From the IMG/VR virus record IMGVR_UViG_3300024581_002364, positions 4,870 to 68,869 of that record: 64,000 nt of DNA; one strand, written 5' to 3'. Below, piece after piece: positions 16,608-23,255 of this stretch. The first letter of the stretch is position 1. Each line of letters begins with the position of its first letter. The notes under the pieces were generated by a model that was given only the letters and a program-made list of their open reading frames with translations, was not told where the DNA came from and made no database searches. Source of the stretch: a virus. Its lineage: Duplodnaviria; Caudoviricetes. The translations under genes and the position numbers were made by a program.

Positions 16608-16634
16608 AGACCTAAGTAAGTCTTTAAACTGCTT
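16608..16634 (+). ncRNA. Leader H-type pseudoknot, family P copy 1
   Basis: AGAC-CUAAGUAA-GUCU-UUAAAC-UGCUU; loop AAGUA pairs with UGCUU. Confidence 0.65.
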
Positions 16635-17115
16635 TTGTTCTTTTTATTTTATCAAATCAAATGAACACAATTGCTTTCGTCACTGACAATTTCTACTTCG
16701 AGTTTGTTATCAACTCGGAGGAAGATATTGCGTACGTTACCAAGCGTGCGTTTCAAACTTCTGATGTTGACTTCAATGATCAGTGCACGTCGATGTCAAT
16801 CGAACGTGCCCGTAAGTATTACGCATCATTGATTGATTGATTGATCCGTCAAAGCGGGTCCGGAGGTGCAAACCCTCCGGCAGTTATTACCCCCAGCGGA
16901 GATGGGTACCGCACACTCGGAGCGACTGACGTGTTCTTCGTCATCCTCAACGGTCAACAACACAGCGCACACTTCTCCAAAGAGGAAGCCGACTTGGTTG
17001 CGTTTGATCTCTCGGTCGAACATAACTACAACTTCGGTCATCCTTTAGAAGAGTCCGCAGAGATATCTGTCTTCTCCTTTACGGAGATGATGGAGTCTCC
17101 GGTTGAGATGGTCCT

Positions 17116-17178
17116 TTGAGACCAGGCGTGATGCCGGGGGTCAAACCCCCTCTCAATTATTGCCACAATCCAGTGGCA
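17116..17178 (+). ncRNA. tRNA-elbow-like element plus UGCCAC/GUGGCA hairpin, copy 1
   Basis: UUGAGA/UCUCAA stem enclosing a GGC/GCC hairpin and GGGG-GUCAAAC-CCCC; then UGCCAC-AAUCCA-GUGGCA. Confidence 0.45.
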
Positions 17179-17585
17179 TTTATTTCATTTCATCATGTTT
17201 AAGAAACTTCTTGCTGATCCACGCTGTGTCTTTATTGGTGTAATGGGTTTAGCTTTAGGAACAATAGCTGTTGGAGTTACCACTCCTGCATTTATTGAAG
17301 GGGCAACCAGGAAACAGTGCCTTAACCGTGACTGGCCTGCTGAAAAGCATCTAGCTCACATGGCATTCTGTGAATACCATAAGTACCCCACTTCCTTAAA
17401 CCATTCCACCCTTTCCAACTGAACGATGACAGCACTCAACATCCGCAAGAACCTTGCCGGTCTTCTCTATCTCACTGCAGATACTATCGTCAAGGCCAAA
17501 GCACCCAAGGTGCCAACCAAAGGCCAGGTGAAGTATCAAGTTGATGATCTTCGTCGGAAGATTGCCAACAAGATCAATCCTGACA

Positions 17586-17648
17586 ACTGACAGCTGGTGC
17601 ATAGCCGGGTTCAATTCCCGGCGTCAGTCTTGCCACAATACCGTGGCA
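17586..17648 (+). ncRNA. tRNA-elbow-like element plus UGCCAC/GUGGCA hairpin, copy 2
   Basis: ACUGAC/GUCAGU stem, D-loop-like AGCUGGU, T-arm GCCGGG-UUCAAUU-CCCGGC; then UGCCAC-AAUACC-GUGGCA. Confidence 0.55.
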
Positions 17649-17906
17649 TTTATTGCATTACACCTCATGGCTACCAACAAAGAGAAGTCGATTGCCCTTG
17701 GTGCAGCATGTACTGCATTGGGTGCCATCATCTTTCCACCAACTGCTATTTTAGGTGCAATTTTAATTGCAAGGGAGGCACTATCAGACCACCCTTACGA
17801 ACAAGATGATAAGAAATCTAGTTCTTATCACAAACCCTTGGAGTACCAACCACCTGACATCAGCAACCCTAGGTTCTGAGTCTTCAGACAAGATACCAGA
17901 CACTTC

Positions 17907-18019
17907 TGTCTGGCTATGTCTGGCTATGTCTGGCTATGTCTGGCTATGTCTGGTTATGTCTGGCTATGTCTGGCTATGTCTGGCTATGTCTGGCTATGTC
18001 TAGTAACTTGTCTGGCTAT
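17907..18019. repeat. 10-bp tandem repeat (TGGCTATGTC)x9 plus degenerate flanks
   Basis: Nine units at 17911-18000, one variant TGGTTATGTC. Confidence 0.97.
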
Positions 18020-18049
18020 TACTCTTTACAAGTTCATTAGCCCAGGTAC

Positions 18050-18076
18050 CGTCCTGAGTATGACGTTAAACTGCTT
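18050..18076 (+). ncRNA. Leader H-type pseudoknot, family P copy 2
   Basis: CGUC-CUGAGUAU-GACG-UUAAAC-UGCUU; GAGUA pairs with UGCUU. Confidence 0.65.
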
Positions 18077-18531
18077 AATGTTTCCTTTAGATTCCCGACA
18101 TGCCAACCACTGTTGAGATTCAAACCGATGCCATTGCTAAAGCCCGTGACAAGAACTGGATGGTTCTAAGTGCAGGCACTGACTACACAGCAATTGTCAT
18201 CGCACACTGCCGTGACATGAACACCAACTGGTACAGAGAGATGGTGATTGTTGATGGTGTAGCTGAAACCATGACACATCAAAGTCCAGATACAGTCTGG
18301 AACGATGAAGAGATTGCCAAGAAGCTTGAGTGTTTCAAGCTGAATACCCATGGCAATGATTTCGTTACACCTGAGACTGACTGACCCCCCACCCCGTTTC
18401 CGTCAATGTCACTGCAGAGCTACAGGATCGGTAAGAACCAGTATGTGACCACTGACTTCTATAAAAGTCCAGGGTTGCGTAATCGGTTCTATCGTTTCAT
18501 TGCAAGGTTATTCCGTATTTAACCTTTCAAC

Positions 18532-18559
18532 AGACCTGAGTAAGTCTTTAAACTACTCA
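18532..18559 (+). ncRNA. Leader H-type pseudoknot, family P copy 3
   Basis: AGAC-CUGAGUAA-GUCU-UUUAAAC-UACUC; GAGUA pairs with UACUC. Confidence 0.65.
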
Positions 18560-18873
18560 CTGTTTTTTCATTTTATTAAATCACATGACTGTTCAAACAT
18601 TTGACGATGGTGGTTATGTTGTCACTGGTGACAGCATTCCCACGTATCGTCTCTTGACATTACGCACAGCTCTCAAACTGGAAACCAAGGGATTGCGTAT
18701 GTCATCTCATCGCCCTAGTGCATATTCAATCATTAAGAAAGAGTTTGGTCTAAAAGGTTCCAAGACTAAGGTCTTGGCTGCTTTTGAATCAATGCTTGTC
18801 AATGATTACGGCATACCTTTGACAGGCTTTACACCCTCTGAGCCTACGGTATAACTACCTTGTCCCCATCACA

Positions 18874-18905
18874 AGCTGGGCAGCAACAATGCGTAAGTCC
18901 CAGCT
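18874..18905 (+). ncRNA. Leader hairpin with GUAAG internal loop, family H copy 1
   Basis: AGCUGGG-CAGCA-ACAA-UGCGUAAGU-CCCAGCU. Confidence 0.65.
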
Positions 18906-19167
18906 TTCTTCACCTCATTTCATTTAGTACAACATCATGTCTACCATGTCTGAACTCCATCGCCTAATGCAAGAAATGAAGCAGGATGATCTTGACATCC
19001 TCGCTGATATTGCCTACGAACAAGAACAAGCCATGCGCGAAGCCATGGACGAACCACCAATCGAGGTATCAAATGACTCATCAACAAAGTAATCACACTG
19101 AAGTAATTACAGAGATCATTGCTTTGATCTCTGTTGTTATTACAGTTCTCATTACCAACATCATCCA

Positions 19168-19539
19168 ATGTCTTCAACCCTCAAGTACTACACCGAGCGT
19201 TATCCGGTTACAGGCGCAGCAAGATATTGGATTGACCGATACAACTGGTCCAAAACCTTTGATGGTTGTGACCCAGAAACAATCCAAATCCACAACATCT
19301 GGCAAAACTACGGCGGGCCAGAAGAAGGTGGTTGGTGGTACGAAGTCGGTCAAGCAATCTCCACGCATTTCATCTTCTCCAAGAAGCAATGTATCCGAAG
19401 ATGCATTGAACTCACCCAGCAGTACCAGCTTGATAACCAGCCTTCCATTACAGATTCACGAGGTCTCACCGCCGTTCATGCCACACTCGGAACAGGATTT
19501 GCCATGGACTATCCCACCGAGCGGCCTTACTATTGCTAG
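19168..19539 (+). CDS. Phage hypothetical protein with YGGPEEGGWWY motif
   Basis: Motif seen in the translation; I recognise it from other phage early regions. Confidence 0.65.
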   Translation: MSSTLKYYTERYPVTGAARYWIDRYNWSKTFDGCDPETIQIHNIWQNYGGPEEGGWWYEVGQAISTHFIFSKKQCIRRCIELTQQYQLDNQPSITDSRGLTAVHATLGTGFAMDYPTERPYYC

Positions 19540-19554
19540 GTCATGAACTACATA

Positions 19555-19586
19555 CCCTGGGCAGCTATGATGCGTAAGTCCCAGGG
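19555..19586 (+). ncRNA. Leader hairpin, family H copy 2
   Basis: CCCUGGG-CAGC-UAUGAU-GCGUAAGU-CCCAGGG. Confidence 0.65.
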
Positions 19587-20136
19587 TTTTCCATAGCAAG
19601 TCCTTCGTTATTCAACTACGTATCAAATCAAATCATGGACACAGTCAATGACATCTACGGTCCTTACTACCAAGAGAAGGGCCGAGAAATACCACGCAAG
19701 TCTTCACTCTCACCTGAAGCAGCAAAGCTGTGGCGTCAGATGGAACAAGCAGCTCATGCTTATGTCTATCAAGACGCACCATTGTGTGACCTTGATCAAG
19801 CAGTTGACGAGCTGATAGCCCACCCAGGCTGCAGCTGGCAACGCAACACAATTGAATACTGGATCCGCCAGCATTACTACAAATAACCACACTGATTTAT
19901 TAGTAAAACTTATTACTCAACCCATGTCTAATCTTCAAATTCCTGACAACATCCCTGATGCTGACAAGCTTAGGGCCATGGCACTCGTTGCAAAAATGCA
20001 GGATGCAGCTAACAAATGCGGTGCTCAATTCATCGGTGGATTCATTGCACCAGATGGCACCAAATACATTGCATCCAACATGGATGAAGATGATCCGAAC
20101 TACATCATCCCTGACAACCTTATGGATTGATCAACC

Positions 20137-20427
20137 ATGACTCGAAAGAAATCAAAGGTCAACTTTGACAAAACTATTGCCGGATTCAATATCACTGAAC
20201 ACGGCATCAAAAGCTACAGCAAAACTATCAAGCTTGGTCCTTTCCAGTTCACTGCCAACATCAATGGTTCACAGGCCAGGGGATCCTTAGGGATCCCTGG
20301 TACTGGCATATCATTTCGCAACTGCGTCTCTATGGACTTACCCTCTTTAGAGTCACCAGATCTGCCAGAATACAACCGCAAACCAGACATGTGGGATGAC
20401 GACGAAGGTTCTCAAGCTAAGCATTGA
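20137..20427 (+). CDS. DUF4236-like protein
   Basis: KTIKLGPFQFTANINGSQARGSLGIPGTGISFR. Confidence 0.6.
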   Translation: MTRKKSKVNFDKTIAGFNITEHGIKSYSKTIKLGPFQFTANINGSQARGSLGIPGTGISFRNCVSMDLPSLESPDLPEYNRKPDMWDDDEGSQAKH

Positions 20428-20590
20428 TAGTGTCACACCAGACGATGTAATTTATACAGGACCACGGGGTGGTGAATACATCATCCGCGATGGTATCAAG
20501 TATTACATCAACCGTAAGCCAACAAGCTATGGTCGTAATTACAAACCAAGGGCAGGTGCATTCCAACGATTCCTTGCTAATCAAAATTAA
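20396..20590 (+). CDS. PBCV basic-adaptor-like small protein
   Basis: IYTGPRGGEYIIRDGIKYYI motif. Confidence 0.6.
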   Translation: MTTKVLKLSIDSVTPDDVIYTGPRGGEYIIRDGIKYYINRKPTSYGRNYKPRAGAFQRFLANQN

Positions 20591-20661
20591 GTAACCCCTC
20601 CACACCTCCCAAAGGGCGACCAGGGGGAATACATTTATATATAGATGTACTTCTCTCTATC

Positions 20662-20688
20662 CGTCCTAGACATGACGTTAAACTGTCT
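20662..20688 (+). ncRNA. Leader H-type pseudoknot, family P copy 4
   Basis: CGUC-CUAGACAU-GACG-UUAAAC-UGUCU; AGACA pairs with UGUCU (compensatory changes). Confidence 0.65.
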
Positions 20689-21174: not shown

Positions 21175-21219
21175 CTAGGCATCAGTCGCTATTATCTCTG
21201 CAGGCTGTGTAAGTCCTAG
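21175..21219 (+). ncRNA. Leader hairpin, family H copy 3
   Basis: CUAGG-CAU-CAGUC...GGCUG-UGUAAGU-CCUAG (compensatory G-C to A-U change in the outer stem). Confidence 0.65.
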
Positions 21220-21241
21220 CTTTCTCTCACATCACATCACA

Positions 21242-23133: not shown

Positions 23134-23166
23134 AGATCAGATGGTGCAACATCTGATCTTTTTTTT
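23134..23166 (+). terminator. Terminator-like hairpin abutting the tRNA 5' end
   Basis: AGATCAGATG-GTGCAA-CATCTGATCT then T7. Confidence 0.7.
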
Positions 23167-23255
23167 GGGAGCGTGATGGAATTGGTAGACATTGCAGACT
23201 TAAAATCTGTTGATCAGTAATGATCGTGCGGGTTCAAGTCCCGCCGCTCCTACCA
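23167..23255 (+). tRNA. trnL: tRNA-Leu (anticodon UAA), CCA encoded
   Basis: Acceptor GGGAGCG/CGCTCCT, D-loop TGGTAG, anticodon arm GCAGA-CTTAAAA-TCTGT, long variable arm, T-arm GCGGG-TTCAAGT-CCCGC, 3' ACCA. Confidence 0.97.

What the first reader, a model, noticed from the sequence alone, without database searches (positions are those of the whole stretch)
16608..20688. Four dispersed copies of a compact H-type pseudoknot with covariation in both stems
Copies at 16608, 18050, 18532 and 20662 share [4-bp stem]-CU-N5-W-[stem']-UU(U)AAAC-[N5']. Stem 1 switches AGAC/GUCU to CGUC/GACG. Stem 2 switches among AAGUA/UGCUU, GAGUA/UGCUU, GAGUA/UACUC and AGACA/UGUCU. Pairing is kept while sequence changes, which is strong within-genome evidence of a real fold. 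The geometry (4-bp stem, 8-nt loop, UUAA linker) is, from memory, reminiscent of ToxI antitoxin monomers of type III toxin-antitoxin systems, which some phages mimic to escape abortive infection. A leader-stabilising role fits the positions equally well.
Basis: partly seen in the sequence, partly recalled or inferred. Interest (0 to 1): 0.85.

Follow-up and report, generated by a model that had tools for sequence, protein, structure and literature searches.

The report
Coremin-like RNA pseudoknot before phage genes
The four repeats are real copies of a 27-base knotted RNA fold that many unrelated phages place at gene boundaries. Its core matches a plant-virus element that stops RNA-degrading enzymes and ribosomes, so it probably shields and insulates the message behind it, though this is untested.

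Summary
The four copies (16608, 18050, 18532, 20662, + strand) align without gaps as S1(4)-CU-S2(5)-N-S1'(4)-UUAAAC-S2'(5). Each lies 23 or 26 nt before the AUG of a small early gene of an S-EIVl-like cyanophage.

The fold is not private to this phage. Scans that left the covarying positions free found it in over 100 diverse viral contigs and in many bacterial genomes. In 114 distinct copies, 95% of cells pair, against 78% in shuffles and 26-50% when the partners are slid. Six of the nine pairs show double changes. Frequent G·U pairs make the fold strand-specific, so it is RNA and not a double-stranded DNA site.

No Rfam family matches it. I found no ToxN-like gene, no tandem array and no preQ1 match, so the ToxI idea is not supported.

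The stem and linker (nGnC...GnCn-UUAAACU) match the coremin Xrn1-resistant RNA of plant viruses. Here the loop is 8 nt, stem 2 is five Watson-Crick pairs, and the second hairpin is missing.

Context favours a persistently folded roadblock at the 5' edge of a cistron or tRNA:
- The distance from the upstream stop codon has a hard lower limit of 5 nt.
- In 10 cases a tRNA starts 2-11 nt downstream.
- In Bacillota phages the fold usually sits before the scaffolding gene.

The function is untested. This scan has already met the same knot on other DNA several times.

The parts
16608..16634 (+). Pseudoknot copy 1: S1 AGAC/GUCU, L1 CU, S2 AAGUA/UGCUU, L3 UUAAAC
   Evidence: It lies in a 450-nt non-coding stretch at the head of the + strand early block.
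16635..16840 (+). 26-nt unstructured, G-poor leader (16635-16660), then a 59-aa early ORF (ATG 16661)
   Evidence: leader MFE 0.0, G 4%; no PHROG or PADLOC hit
18050..18076 (+). Pseudoknot copy 2: S1 CGUC/GACG, S2 GAGUA/UGCUU
   Evidence: It follows the 10-bp tandem array at 17900-18010.
18077..18384 (+). 23-nt unstructured leader, then a 94-aa ORF (ATG 18100)
18532..18558 (+). Pseudoknot copy 3: S1 AGAC/GUCU, S2 GAGUA/UACUC. Its linker UUAAACUAC is identical to the BNYVV coremin spacer as given nucleotide by nucleotide in the paper.
   Evidence: An open frame (possible 38-aa ORF from ATG 18406) ends with TAA at 18520-18522, 9 nt before it.
18559..18854 (+). 26-nt unstructured leader, then an 89-aa ORF (ATG 18585; phrog_19182, function unknown)
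20622..20658 (+). Conserved 16-bp hairpin ending 3-4 nt before copy 4
   Evidence: It is nearly invariant in 5 relatives, with only one-sided changes, so covariation is not shown.
20662..20688 (+). Pseudoknot copy 4: S1 CGUC/GACG, S2 AGACA/UGUCU
   Evidence: identical in L005, L006, L008 and L017
20689..20894 (+). 23-nt unstructured CA-rich leader, then a 60-aa ORF (ATG 20712)

Best explanation
Each copy is transcribed as part of an early phage message and folds into a 27-nt H-type pseudoknot. Stem 1 has 4 bp with invariant G2-C15 and C4-G13. Loop 1 is C5-U6. Stem 2 has 5 bp ending in an invariant A11-U23. One junction base follows, and loop 3 (UUAAAC) probably lies in the minor groove of stem 1. 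The fold belongs to a large family that shares its core with the coremin Xrn1-resistant RNA of plant viruses. I propose that it acts without a protein partner, as a one-way mechanical roadblock at the 5' edge of the RNA that follows. Enzymes that approach from the 5' side are stopped at the knot. These would be RNase J-type 5'-3' exonucleases, RNase E tracking from a 5'-monophosphate end, and ribosomes coming from an upstream frame. In this phage that would leave four early genes with a defined, protected 5' end. Between that end and the AUG lies a 23 or 26-nt unstructured, G-poor leader without a Shine-Dalgarno sequence, kept free of upstream pairing. What is shown: the fold, its spread, its strand specificity, its placement rules and its likeness to coremin. 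What is inferred: that it is a roadblock in bacteria, and which enzyme it stops. My confidence in the fold and the family is about 0.9. The 0.45 given as confidence is for the roadblock mechanism.
For: Fold:
- 95.3% of cells pair, six of nine pairs show double changes, and the slid and shuffled controls fail.
- G.U pairs are frequent (U.G at pair 10-24 in 41 of 114 copies), so only this strand folds.
- Every nearby tRNA lies on the same strand as the motif. Within each genome the copies lie on one strand.

It lies inside transcripts and is not a promoter:
- In 56 of about 206 contexts it starts 5-10 nt after a same-strand stop codon.
- In many Bacillota contexts it follows a terminator-like hairpin directly.

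It is kept folded:
- The stop-to-knot distance has a hard lower bound (no case at 1-3 nt, 4 at 4 nt, 32 at 5 nt, then 8, 6, 4...) across very different phages. By my reasoning from ribosome footprints, 5 nt is the closest a structure can sit without being unwound by a terminating ribosome.

It sits before RNAs that need protection or high yield:
- 10 tRNAs start 2-11 nt downstream.
- 12 of 20 downstream ORFs tested are head scaffolding genes from two PHROG families. The sample was partly chosen by context.
- In S. aureus Phietavirus phages it lies inside the late operon, between a minor ORF and the scaffold and capsid genes.
- In S-EIVl and relatives it lies before the SSB, DUF5895 and GP88 genes.

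Likeness to a proven roadblock:
- Coremin has a 3-5 bp hairpin closed by C-G and a spacer U13 U14 A15 A16 A17 C18 U19 A20 C21 in which A16-A20 are essential (PMC6546385).
- Loops of 5-8 nt occur, and the element blocks scanning ribosomes (PMC10520033).
- Watson-Crick loop-spacer variants exist, and the motif stimulates frameshifting in a screen run in E. coli (PMC10321173).

Host range fits RNase J in part:
- 9 folding copies in 401 Bacilli genomes, against 0 in 401 Gammaproteobacteria genomes.
- Beta- and gammaproteobacteria almost exclusively have RNase E/G only (PMC3997798).
- RNase J scores above cut-off in the Enterococcus, Clostridia and Calothrix genomes that carry a copy.

Local anatomy:
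- The leaders have MFE 0.0 and 4-13% G.
- A stable hairpin ends within 12 nt upstream in 37% of contexts, against 16-23% at control positions. That is the layout expected for a processing site between a 3'-protected and a 5'-protected RNA.
Against: - There are no RNA data.
- The second hairpin (hp2), which coremin needs for Xrn1 resistance, is absent in the window copies.
- The loop does not fit YGAD/YGNNAD: its second base is U or C, not G.
- Nearest-neighbour energies of the two stems are small (-0.1 to -2.9 kcal/mol). Any mechanical strength would have to come from tertiary contacts that I cannot compute.
- A Sphingobacteriales genome with a well-folded copy showed no RNase J (it is an incomplete MAG). 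RNase J therefore cannot be the only target.
- In the window the copies are not next to stop codons (71 nt or more for annotated ORFs), so the placement rule seen elsewhere is not shown here.
- One orthologous substitution breaks a stem-2 pair.
Confidence: 0.45

Rival explanations
1. Translation device. The knot acts mainly on ribosomes. It stops ribosomes or 30S/70S subunits sliding on from the upstream stop codon, so the two genes are translated independently. It may also dock on the 30S platform, or hold the SD-less leader open as a standby site, so that it enhances initiation 23-26 nt downstream.
For: - The knot-to-AUG spacing peaks at 23 and 26 nt, with 20-29 nt common in marine phages.
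- The leaders are unstructured, G-poor and lack a Shine-Dalgarno sequence.
- The 5-nt limit after stop codons equals the spacer used by frameshift and readthrough stimulators (geometry from established knowledge).
- Coremin blocks scanning ribosomes and stimulates frameshifting, including in an E. coli-based screen.
Against: - The same knot lies 2-11 nt before tRNA genes, where nothing is translated downstream.
- Window copy 1 has no upstream ORF close by.
- Distances to the next start codon range from 13 to over 300 nt outside the marine clade.
- This reading is compatible with the best explanation and does not exclude it.
Confidence: 0.25
2. Protein-binding operator. A phage or host RNA-binding protein recognises the knot and controls a regulon of messages, as T4 gp32 does at its own leader pseudoknot or RegA does at early messages.
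For: - There are several copies per genome before selected genes. In S-EIVl and L013 one lies before the SSB gene itself.
- 13 positions are invariant, more than a plain helix needs.
Against: - The family occurs in phages of many bacterial phyla. Earlier notes of this scan, which I did not check, add giant and archaeal viruses. RNA viruses of plants carry its core.
- No single phage protein is shared across these contexts. I made no systematic co-occurrence test.
- The invariant bases sit where tertiary contacts of compact pseudoknots lie (L1 C, A-rich L3), which explains their conservation without a protein.
Confidence: 0.1
3. DNA-level signal. The motif is a promoter, or a structured single-stranded DNA site for a polymerase, primase or recombinase.
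For: - It lies upstream of genes and tRNAs in a fixed orientation.
- It often follows terminator-like hairpins directly.
- In phage phiJB the site is annotated as 'putative promoter P5R', a prediction by the depositors.
Against: - Two interleaved helices covary with frequent G.U pairs. Double-stranded DNA recognition does not explain this.
- No -35/-10 arrangement fits the conserved bases (my inspection).
- It often starts 5 nt after a stop codon inside operons.
- No phage RNA polymerase gene turned up among the large ORFs scanned. That scan was not exhaustive.
Confidence: 0.05
4. Type III antitoxin mimic (ToxI-like) or a ligand-sensing riboswitch (preQ1-I-like).
For: There is only a general likeness: small pseudoknots with an A-rich third loop.
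Against: - There is no tandem 34-36-nt array and no ToxN/AbiQ-like gene.
- No Rfam match appears even at E of 10 on a 66-nt query.
- The junction between the stems is a single variable base, which leaves no conserved pocket.
- The downstream genes are unrelated to one another.
Confidence: 0.03

Closest known systems
[quoted passage not shown] 2019, PMC6546385; 2023, PMC10520033)
   Same: - The hairpin has 3-5 bp, with a G-C third pair and a C-G closing pair.
- The first loop base is a pyrimidine and the next-to-last is A.
- The linker UUAAACU is the same. Window copy 3 has the full UUAAACUAC.
- Natural loops of up to 8 nt occur.
- It is found in intergenic regions and sometimes in tandem.
   Different: - The phage form has an 8-nt loop that starts CU, not YG.
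- It has five clear Watson-Crick loop-linker pairs.
- G replaces the essential A20 in 111 of 114 copies.
- It has no adjacent second hairpin.
- It sits in DNA-virus transcripts of prokaryotes, which have no Xrn1.
- Its function has not been tested.
Watson-Crick-type coremin (xrRNA-WCC; Sanxia picorna-like virus 5 and selected variants, Dilweg et al. 2023, PMC10321173)
   Same: It has an antiparallel pseudoknot between the hairpin loop and the linker that was proven by compensatory mutations. It stimulates frameshifting without hp2.
   Different: - Stem 2 there has 3 bp and uses linker positions 18-20 (C18 is paired). Here it has 5 bp and starts one base later (C22 is unpaired).
- The first loop base is G there and C here.
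- hp2 is still needed there for Xrn1 resistance.
Luteovirus-type compact frameshifting pseudoknots (e.g. BWYV, 28 nt; from established knowledge, not tested here)
   Same: The architecture is the same: a short stem 1, a 2-nt loop 1 starting with C, a one-base junction, and an A-rich loop 3 that packs into the minor groove of stem 1.
   Different: Those lie inside overlapping reading frames, 5-8 nt after a slippery heptamer. These are intergenic, with no slippery site.
Protein barriers at chloroplast and cyanobacterial-type intercistronic sites (PPR10 at atpI-atpH) and bacterial 5' stabilisers (ompA 5' hairpin, SP82 / STAB-SD); from established knowledge
   Same: The proposed job is the same: a block at the 5' edge of a cistron that defines a processed end, protects the downstream message and keeps the ribosome-binding region open.
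   Different: Those rely on a bound protein, a bound ribosome or a plain hairpin. Here the proposal is an RNA-only knot.

Membership tests
Coremin / xrRNA-C | 5' hairpin of 3-5 bp closed by a pyrimidine-purine (C-G) pair | tested here: met
   C4-G13 and G2-C15 are invariant in 114 copies. The requirement is from PMC6546385.
Coremin / xrRNA-C | Loop consensus YGAD (4 nt) or YGNNAD (6 nt) | tested here: not met
   The loop is 8 nt, C-U/C-N4-A-N. The first Y and the next-to-last A fit. The second base is never G. An 8-nt loop that breaks the consensus is nevertheless Xrn1-resistant in the BNYVV context.
Coremin / xrRNA-C | Conserved spacer U13 U14 A15 A16 A17 C18 U19 A20 C21, with A16-A20 essential | tested here: inconclusive
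   UUAAACU is invariant here. The next base is G in 111 of 114 copies and A in 3, including window copy 3.
Coremin / xrRNA-C | Second hairpin (hp2, at least 3-4 bp) directly after the spacer | tested here: not met
   The window leaders after the knot have MFE 0.0. Some Bacillota contexts have a hairpin 7-20 nt further on, but it is not adjacent.
Coremin / xrRNA-C | Stalls Xrn1 (or another 5'-3' exonuclease) in vitro | not testable with these tools
   This needs an enzyme assay.
Type III toxin-antitoxin antitoxin RNA (ToxI-like) | Tandem array of about 34-36-nt repeats next to a ToxN/AbiQ-type endoribonuclease gene | tested here: not met
   The copies are 482-2130 nt apart. There is no defence or ToxN hit and no Rfam hit.
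preQ1-I riboswitch | Match to the Rfam model, a 3' strand that holds the Shine-Dalgarno sequence, and queuosine-related genes downstream | tested here: not met
   No match at E up to 10. The knot ends 23-26 nt before the AUG. The downstream genes are unrelated.
Programmed -1 frameshift pseudoknot | Slippery heptamer 5-8 nt upstream, inside overlapping frames | tested here: not met
   The window copies are intergenic. The 5-nt spacers elsewhere follow stop codons and are not conserved.
Sigma-70-type promoter or intrinsic terminator | -35/-10 hexamers at 16-18 bp spacing, or a GC-rich hairpin followed by a U tract | tested here: not met
   No such site overlaps any copy in the consensus scan. 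The stems have 4-5 bp with an interleaved topology.

The most novel reading that the evidence does not exclude
One small, protein-independent RNA knot is a universal one-way roadblock, used by RNA viruses of eukaryotes and by DNA viruses of bacteria (and, by earlier unchecked notes of this scan, of archaea and protists). In phages it would be the first exoribonuclease-resistant RNA described in prokaryotic viruses. It would set segment-specific mRNA stability and uncouple neighbouring genes inside long transcripts.
Probability: 0.35. Interest if true: 0.85.

Novelty: new variant of a known kind. Interest (0 to 1): 0.72.

Why it matters
How phages set very different protein yields from genes on one long transcript is poorly understood. 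A 27-nt RNA-only element that marks and protects the 5' edge of chosen cistrons and tRNAs would be a simple, general answer, and a compact tool for stabilising or insulating bacterial messages. It would also link the plant-virus coremin element to a much larger and older family, and it spells out in plain base pairs the loop-linker contact that is still unresolved for coremin. The element is present in cultured phages: S-EIVl and the S. aureus phages phiNM4, 96, phiETA3 and phiJB. Nuclease mutants exist for their hosts, so the idea can be tested directly.

Tried and rejected
- Rfam at permissive thresholds on the 8.5-kb region, on a 66-nt slice around copy 2 and on the S. aureus phage site. 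Nothing matched the motif.
- Relaxed structural scan of the window for diverged copies (loops of 6-9 nt, one linker mismatch). Only background turned up.
- A search for RNA sequencing runs, to see 5' ends.
- Sigma-70 promoter and terminator reading. No site overlaps the copies.
- ToxI and defence reading. No supporting gene.
- Literature searches for coremin with bacteriophage, for exoribonuclease-resistant RNA with phage and RNase J, and for a pseudoknot before scaffolding genes. No paper describes this element in phages. One further search failed on syntax.
- A strict link to RNase J. It is weakened by a Bacteroidota genome that has a copy but no RNase J match.
- A BLAST of a second context (L028) against named phages. 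It found only unannotated gut phage records.


Full report
**What is there**

The window is most of a 68.9-kb IMG/VR viral contig. It belongs to the lineage of Synechococcus phage S-EIVl. A 613-aa PcfJ-like protein is 33% identical to S-EIVl's, and gene order is shared. The finding lies in the early block of small + strand genes between 16.2 and 21.2 kb.

They align without gaps as S1(4)-CU-S2(5)-N-S1'(4)-UUAAAC-S2'(5).

A relaxed structural scan finds no further copy in the window above the shuffled background. Each knot ends 23 or 26 nt before the ATG of a small ORF (59, 94, 89 and 60 aa). The stretch between has a predicted folding energy of 0.0, is 4-13% G, and has no Shine-Dalgarno sequence. 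Copy 4 is preceded by a conserved 16-bp hairpin.

**Is the fold real?**

Close relatives keep the same four sites. More distant relatives, fetched through the 613-aa protein, carry further copies with new stem variants:
- Stem 1: AGUC/GACU, GGUC/GACC, GGAC/GUCC, UGUC/GACA.
- Stem 2: GGGCA/UGCCU, UGGUA/UGCCA, GAGCA/UGCUC.

S-EIVl itself has three copies.

Of 126 hits, 119 had at least 3 of 4 stem-1 pairs together with at least 4 of 5 stem-2 pairs, so chance matches are a small minority.

On 114 distinct 27-mers (A1) the named pseudoknot gives these figures:

| Measure | Result |
|---|---|
| Cells paired | 95.3% |
| Same, in shuffles | 78.5 +/- 0.8% (0 of 500 reach the observed value) |
| Same, with partners slid | 26-50% |
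| Pairs with changes on both sides | 6 of 9 (198 cells) |
| Pair 3-14 | UA 54, AU 49, CG 10, GC 1, never mispaired |

G.U pairs are common, so only this strand can fold. All nearby tRNAs lie on the same strand as the motif, and within each genome all copies lie on one strand. The fold is therefore in RNA, or formally in one DNA strand, and is not a double-stranded DNA site.

**What it is not**

- No Rfam family matches, even on a 66-nt query at E of 10.
- There is no tandem array, no ToxN/AbiQ-like protein and no other defence hit, so the ToxI idea fails its defining features.
- The preQ1-I idea fails as well: no model match, no SD in the 3' strand, and unrelated downstream genes.
- No sigma-70-like promoter or terminator overlaps the copies.

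**Closest known**

Notes from earlier agents of this scan pointed to the plant-virus coremin element. I checked this by reading the papers.

- Coremin is a 3-5 bp hairpin closed by C-G, with a YGAD loop. A spacer follows whose bases the paper names one by one (U13 U14 A15 A16 A17 C18 U19 A20 C21; A16-A20 are essential). A second hairpin is needed for Xrn1 stalling (PMC6546385).
- Loops of 5-8 nt occur in nature, and the element blocks scanning ribosomes (PMC10520033).
- Selected and natural variants form a Watson-Crick loop-spacer helix that was proven by compensatory mutations. The motif stimulates -1 frameshifting in a screen run in E. coli (PMC10321173).

The phage knot shares nGnC...GnCn, the C-G closing pair, the first loop pyrimidine, the next-to-last loop A, and UUAAACU. 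Window copy 3 has the whole UUAAACUAC.

It differs in three ways: an 8-nt loop that starts CU, a five-pair Watson-Crick stem 2 in a register one base later, and no adjacent second hairpin. I therefore file it as a variant that works like coremin, not as a proven member.

**Context across 225 distinct copies**

- Distance from an upstream same-strand stop codon: no case at 1-3 nt, 4 at 4 nt, 32 at 5 nt, then 8, 6, 4. The 5-nt spacers are unrelated in sequence and come from very different phages. This is a hard lower bound with a tail. It is what I would expect if the knot must stay folded while ribosomes terminate, because 5 nt puts its first base at the mRNA entrance of a ribosome on the stop codon. 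That last step is my inference from known footprints.
- Distance to the next start codon: peaks at 23 and 26 nt, as in the window, but it ranges widely.
- tRNAs: ten start 2-11 nt downstream.
- Upstream hairpin: a stable one ends within 12 nt upstream in 37% of cases, against 16-23% at control positions.
- Downstream genes: of 20 tested, 12 are head scaffolding genes from two PHROG families. The sample was partly chosen by context.
- S. aureus Phietavirus phages (phiJB, phiNM4, 96, phiETA3): the knot lies inside the late operon, just before the scaffold and major capsid genes. The depositors of phiJB annotated the spot as a putative promoter.
- S-EIVl relatives: it also precedes the SSB, DUF5895 and GP88 genes.

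**Host range**

About 89 of its 122 hits fold (at least 3 of 4 stem-1 and 4 of 5 stem-2 pairs). These lie in Bacillota, Bacteroidota, Desulfobacterota, Planctomycetota, Patescibacteria, Cyanobacteria, Campylobacter, an alphaproteobacterium and others. The gammaproteobacterial hits do not fold.

In even samples of 401 genomes each, Bacilli gave 9 folding copies and Gammaproteobacteria gave none. The four gammaproteobacterial matches all mispair. One of them is in the unpublished genome G316, so the count of 'none in 401' includes that genome.

Beta- and gammaproteobacteria almost exclusively have RNase E/G only, while Bacilli, Clostridia, deltaproteobacteria and archaea have RNase J (PMC3997798). 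RNase J scores above cut-off in the Enterococcus, Clostridia and Calothrix carriers. A Sphingobacteriales MAG that carries a good copy showed none. The link to RNase J is therefore suggestive but not clean.

**Reading**

The best-supported mechanism is an RNA-only, one-way roadblock at the 5' edge of the following RNA. It would stop 5'-end-dependent decay and upstream ribosomes. In this phage it would frame an open, SD-less leader for four early genes.

Protein operator, DNA signal, antitoxin mimic and riboswitch are less likely, for the reasons given under the rival explanations.

Nothing here shows transcription, RNA ends or nuclease resistance.

**Novelty**

The searchable literature holds no description of this element in phages, and Rfam has no model for it. 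This scan has met the same knot before on other DNA.

- the formal covariation count;
- the 5-nt lower bound after stop codons;
- the scaffolding-gene association;
- presence in cultured S. aureus phages and in S-EIVl;
- the Bacilli versus Gammaproteobacteria contrast.

Noticed in passing
window 16842-16915, 17120-17192, 17590-17662: This is a second class of repeated intergenic element. A tRNA T-arm-like hairpin (e.g. CCGGGTTCAATTCCCGG) is followed by a TGCCAC..GTGGCA hairpin and TTTATT, just before start codons. The first copy is 90.5% identical over 74 nt to S-EIVl, although the proteins are only about 33% identical (H9). One copy gives a weak mascRNA-like (acceptor plus T arm) Rfam hit. 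It could be a tRNA-like processing signal.
   Followed up: partly
window 18876-18912, 19557-19593, about 21175-21225: This is a third class of repeated element, lying before start codons: a hairpin CTGGG...TG(C/T)GTAAGT-CCCAG followed by CTTTC. The third copy has a compensatory change, CTAGG/CCTAG. It is also present in close relatives.
   Followed up: partly
window 17900-18010: There are about ten tandem copies of the 10-bp unit GTCTGGCTAT between an early ORF and knot copy 2. They could be iteron-like or protein-binding repeats.
   Followed up: no
L195 7271-7349 (Polynucleobacter MAG contig): A well-folded copy of the knot is followed within about 2 nt by a type III hammerhead ribozyme (Rfam RF00008, 41 bits, E 7e-8, below gathering). 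This links the knot to RNA processing.
   Followed up: partly
L144, L145, L149, L174, L177, L200, L203, L213, L216, L217, L229, L232, L233 and others: In Desulfobacterales, Planctomycetales and Omnitrophota genomes the knot is preceded by a conserved CAyTGC-N9-TGC stretch that reads as an HCxxxC micropeptide frame running into the knot.
   Followed up: no
window 18406-18522: An unlisted 38-codon open frame (ATG 18406) ends with TAA 9 nt before knot copy 3. It is in the same frame as the preceding 94-aa ORF, after that ORF's TGA. The TAA and the bases before it are conserved in L005, while the 9 nt after it vary.
   Followed up: partly
L257 2999-3039 (S. aureus phage phiJB): The record annotates 'putative promoter P5R' exactly over the knot, between ORF46 and the head scaffolding gene. 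That annotation is probably a misreading of the RNA element.
   Followed up: no
window 23134-23255: A terminator-like hairpin (23134-23159) is followed directly by a tRNA-Leu(UAA) gene (23167-23255) that is 87.5% identical to tRNA-Leu of T4-like cyanophages.
   Followed up: no
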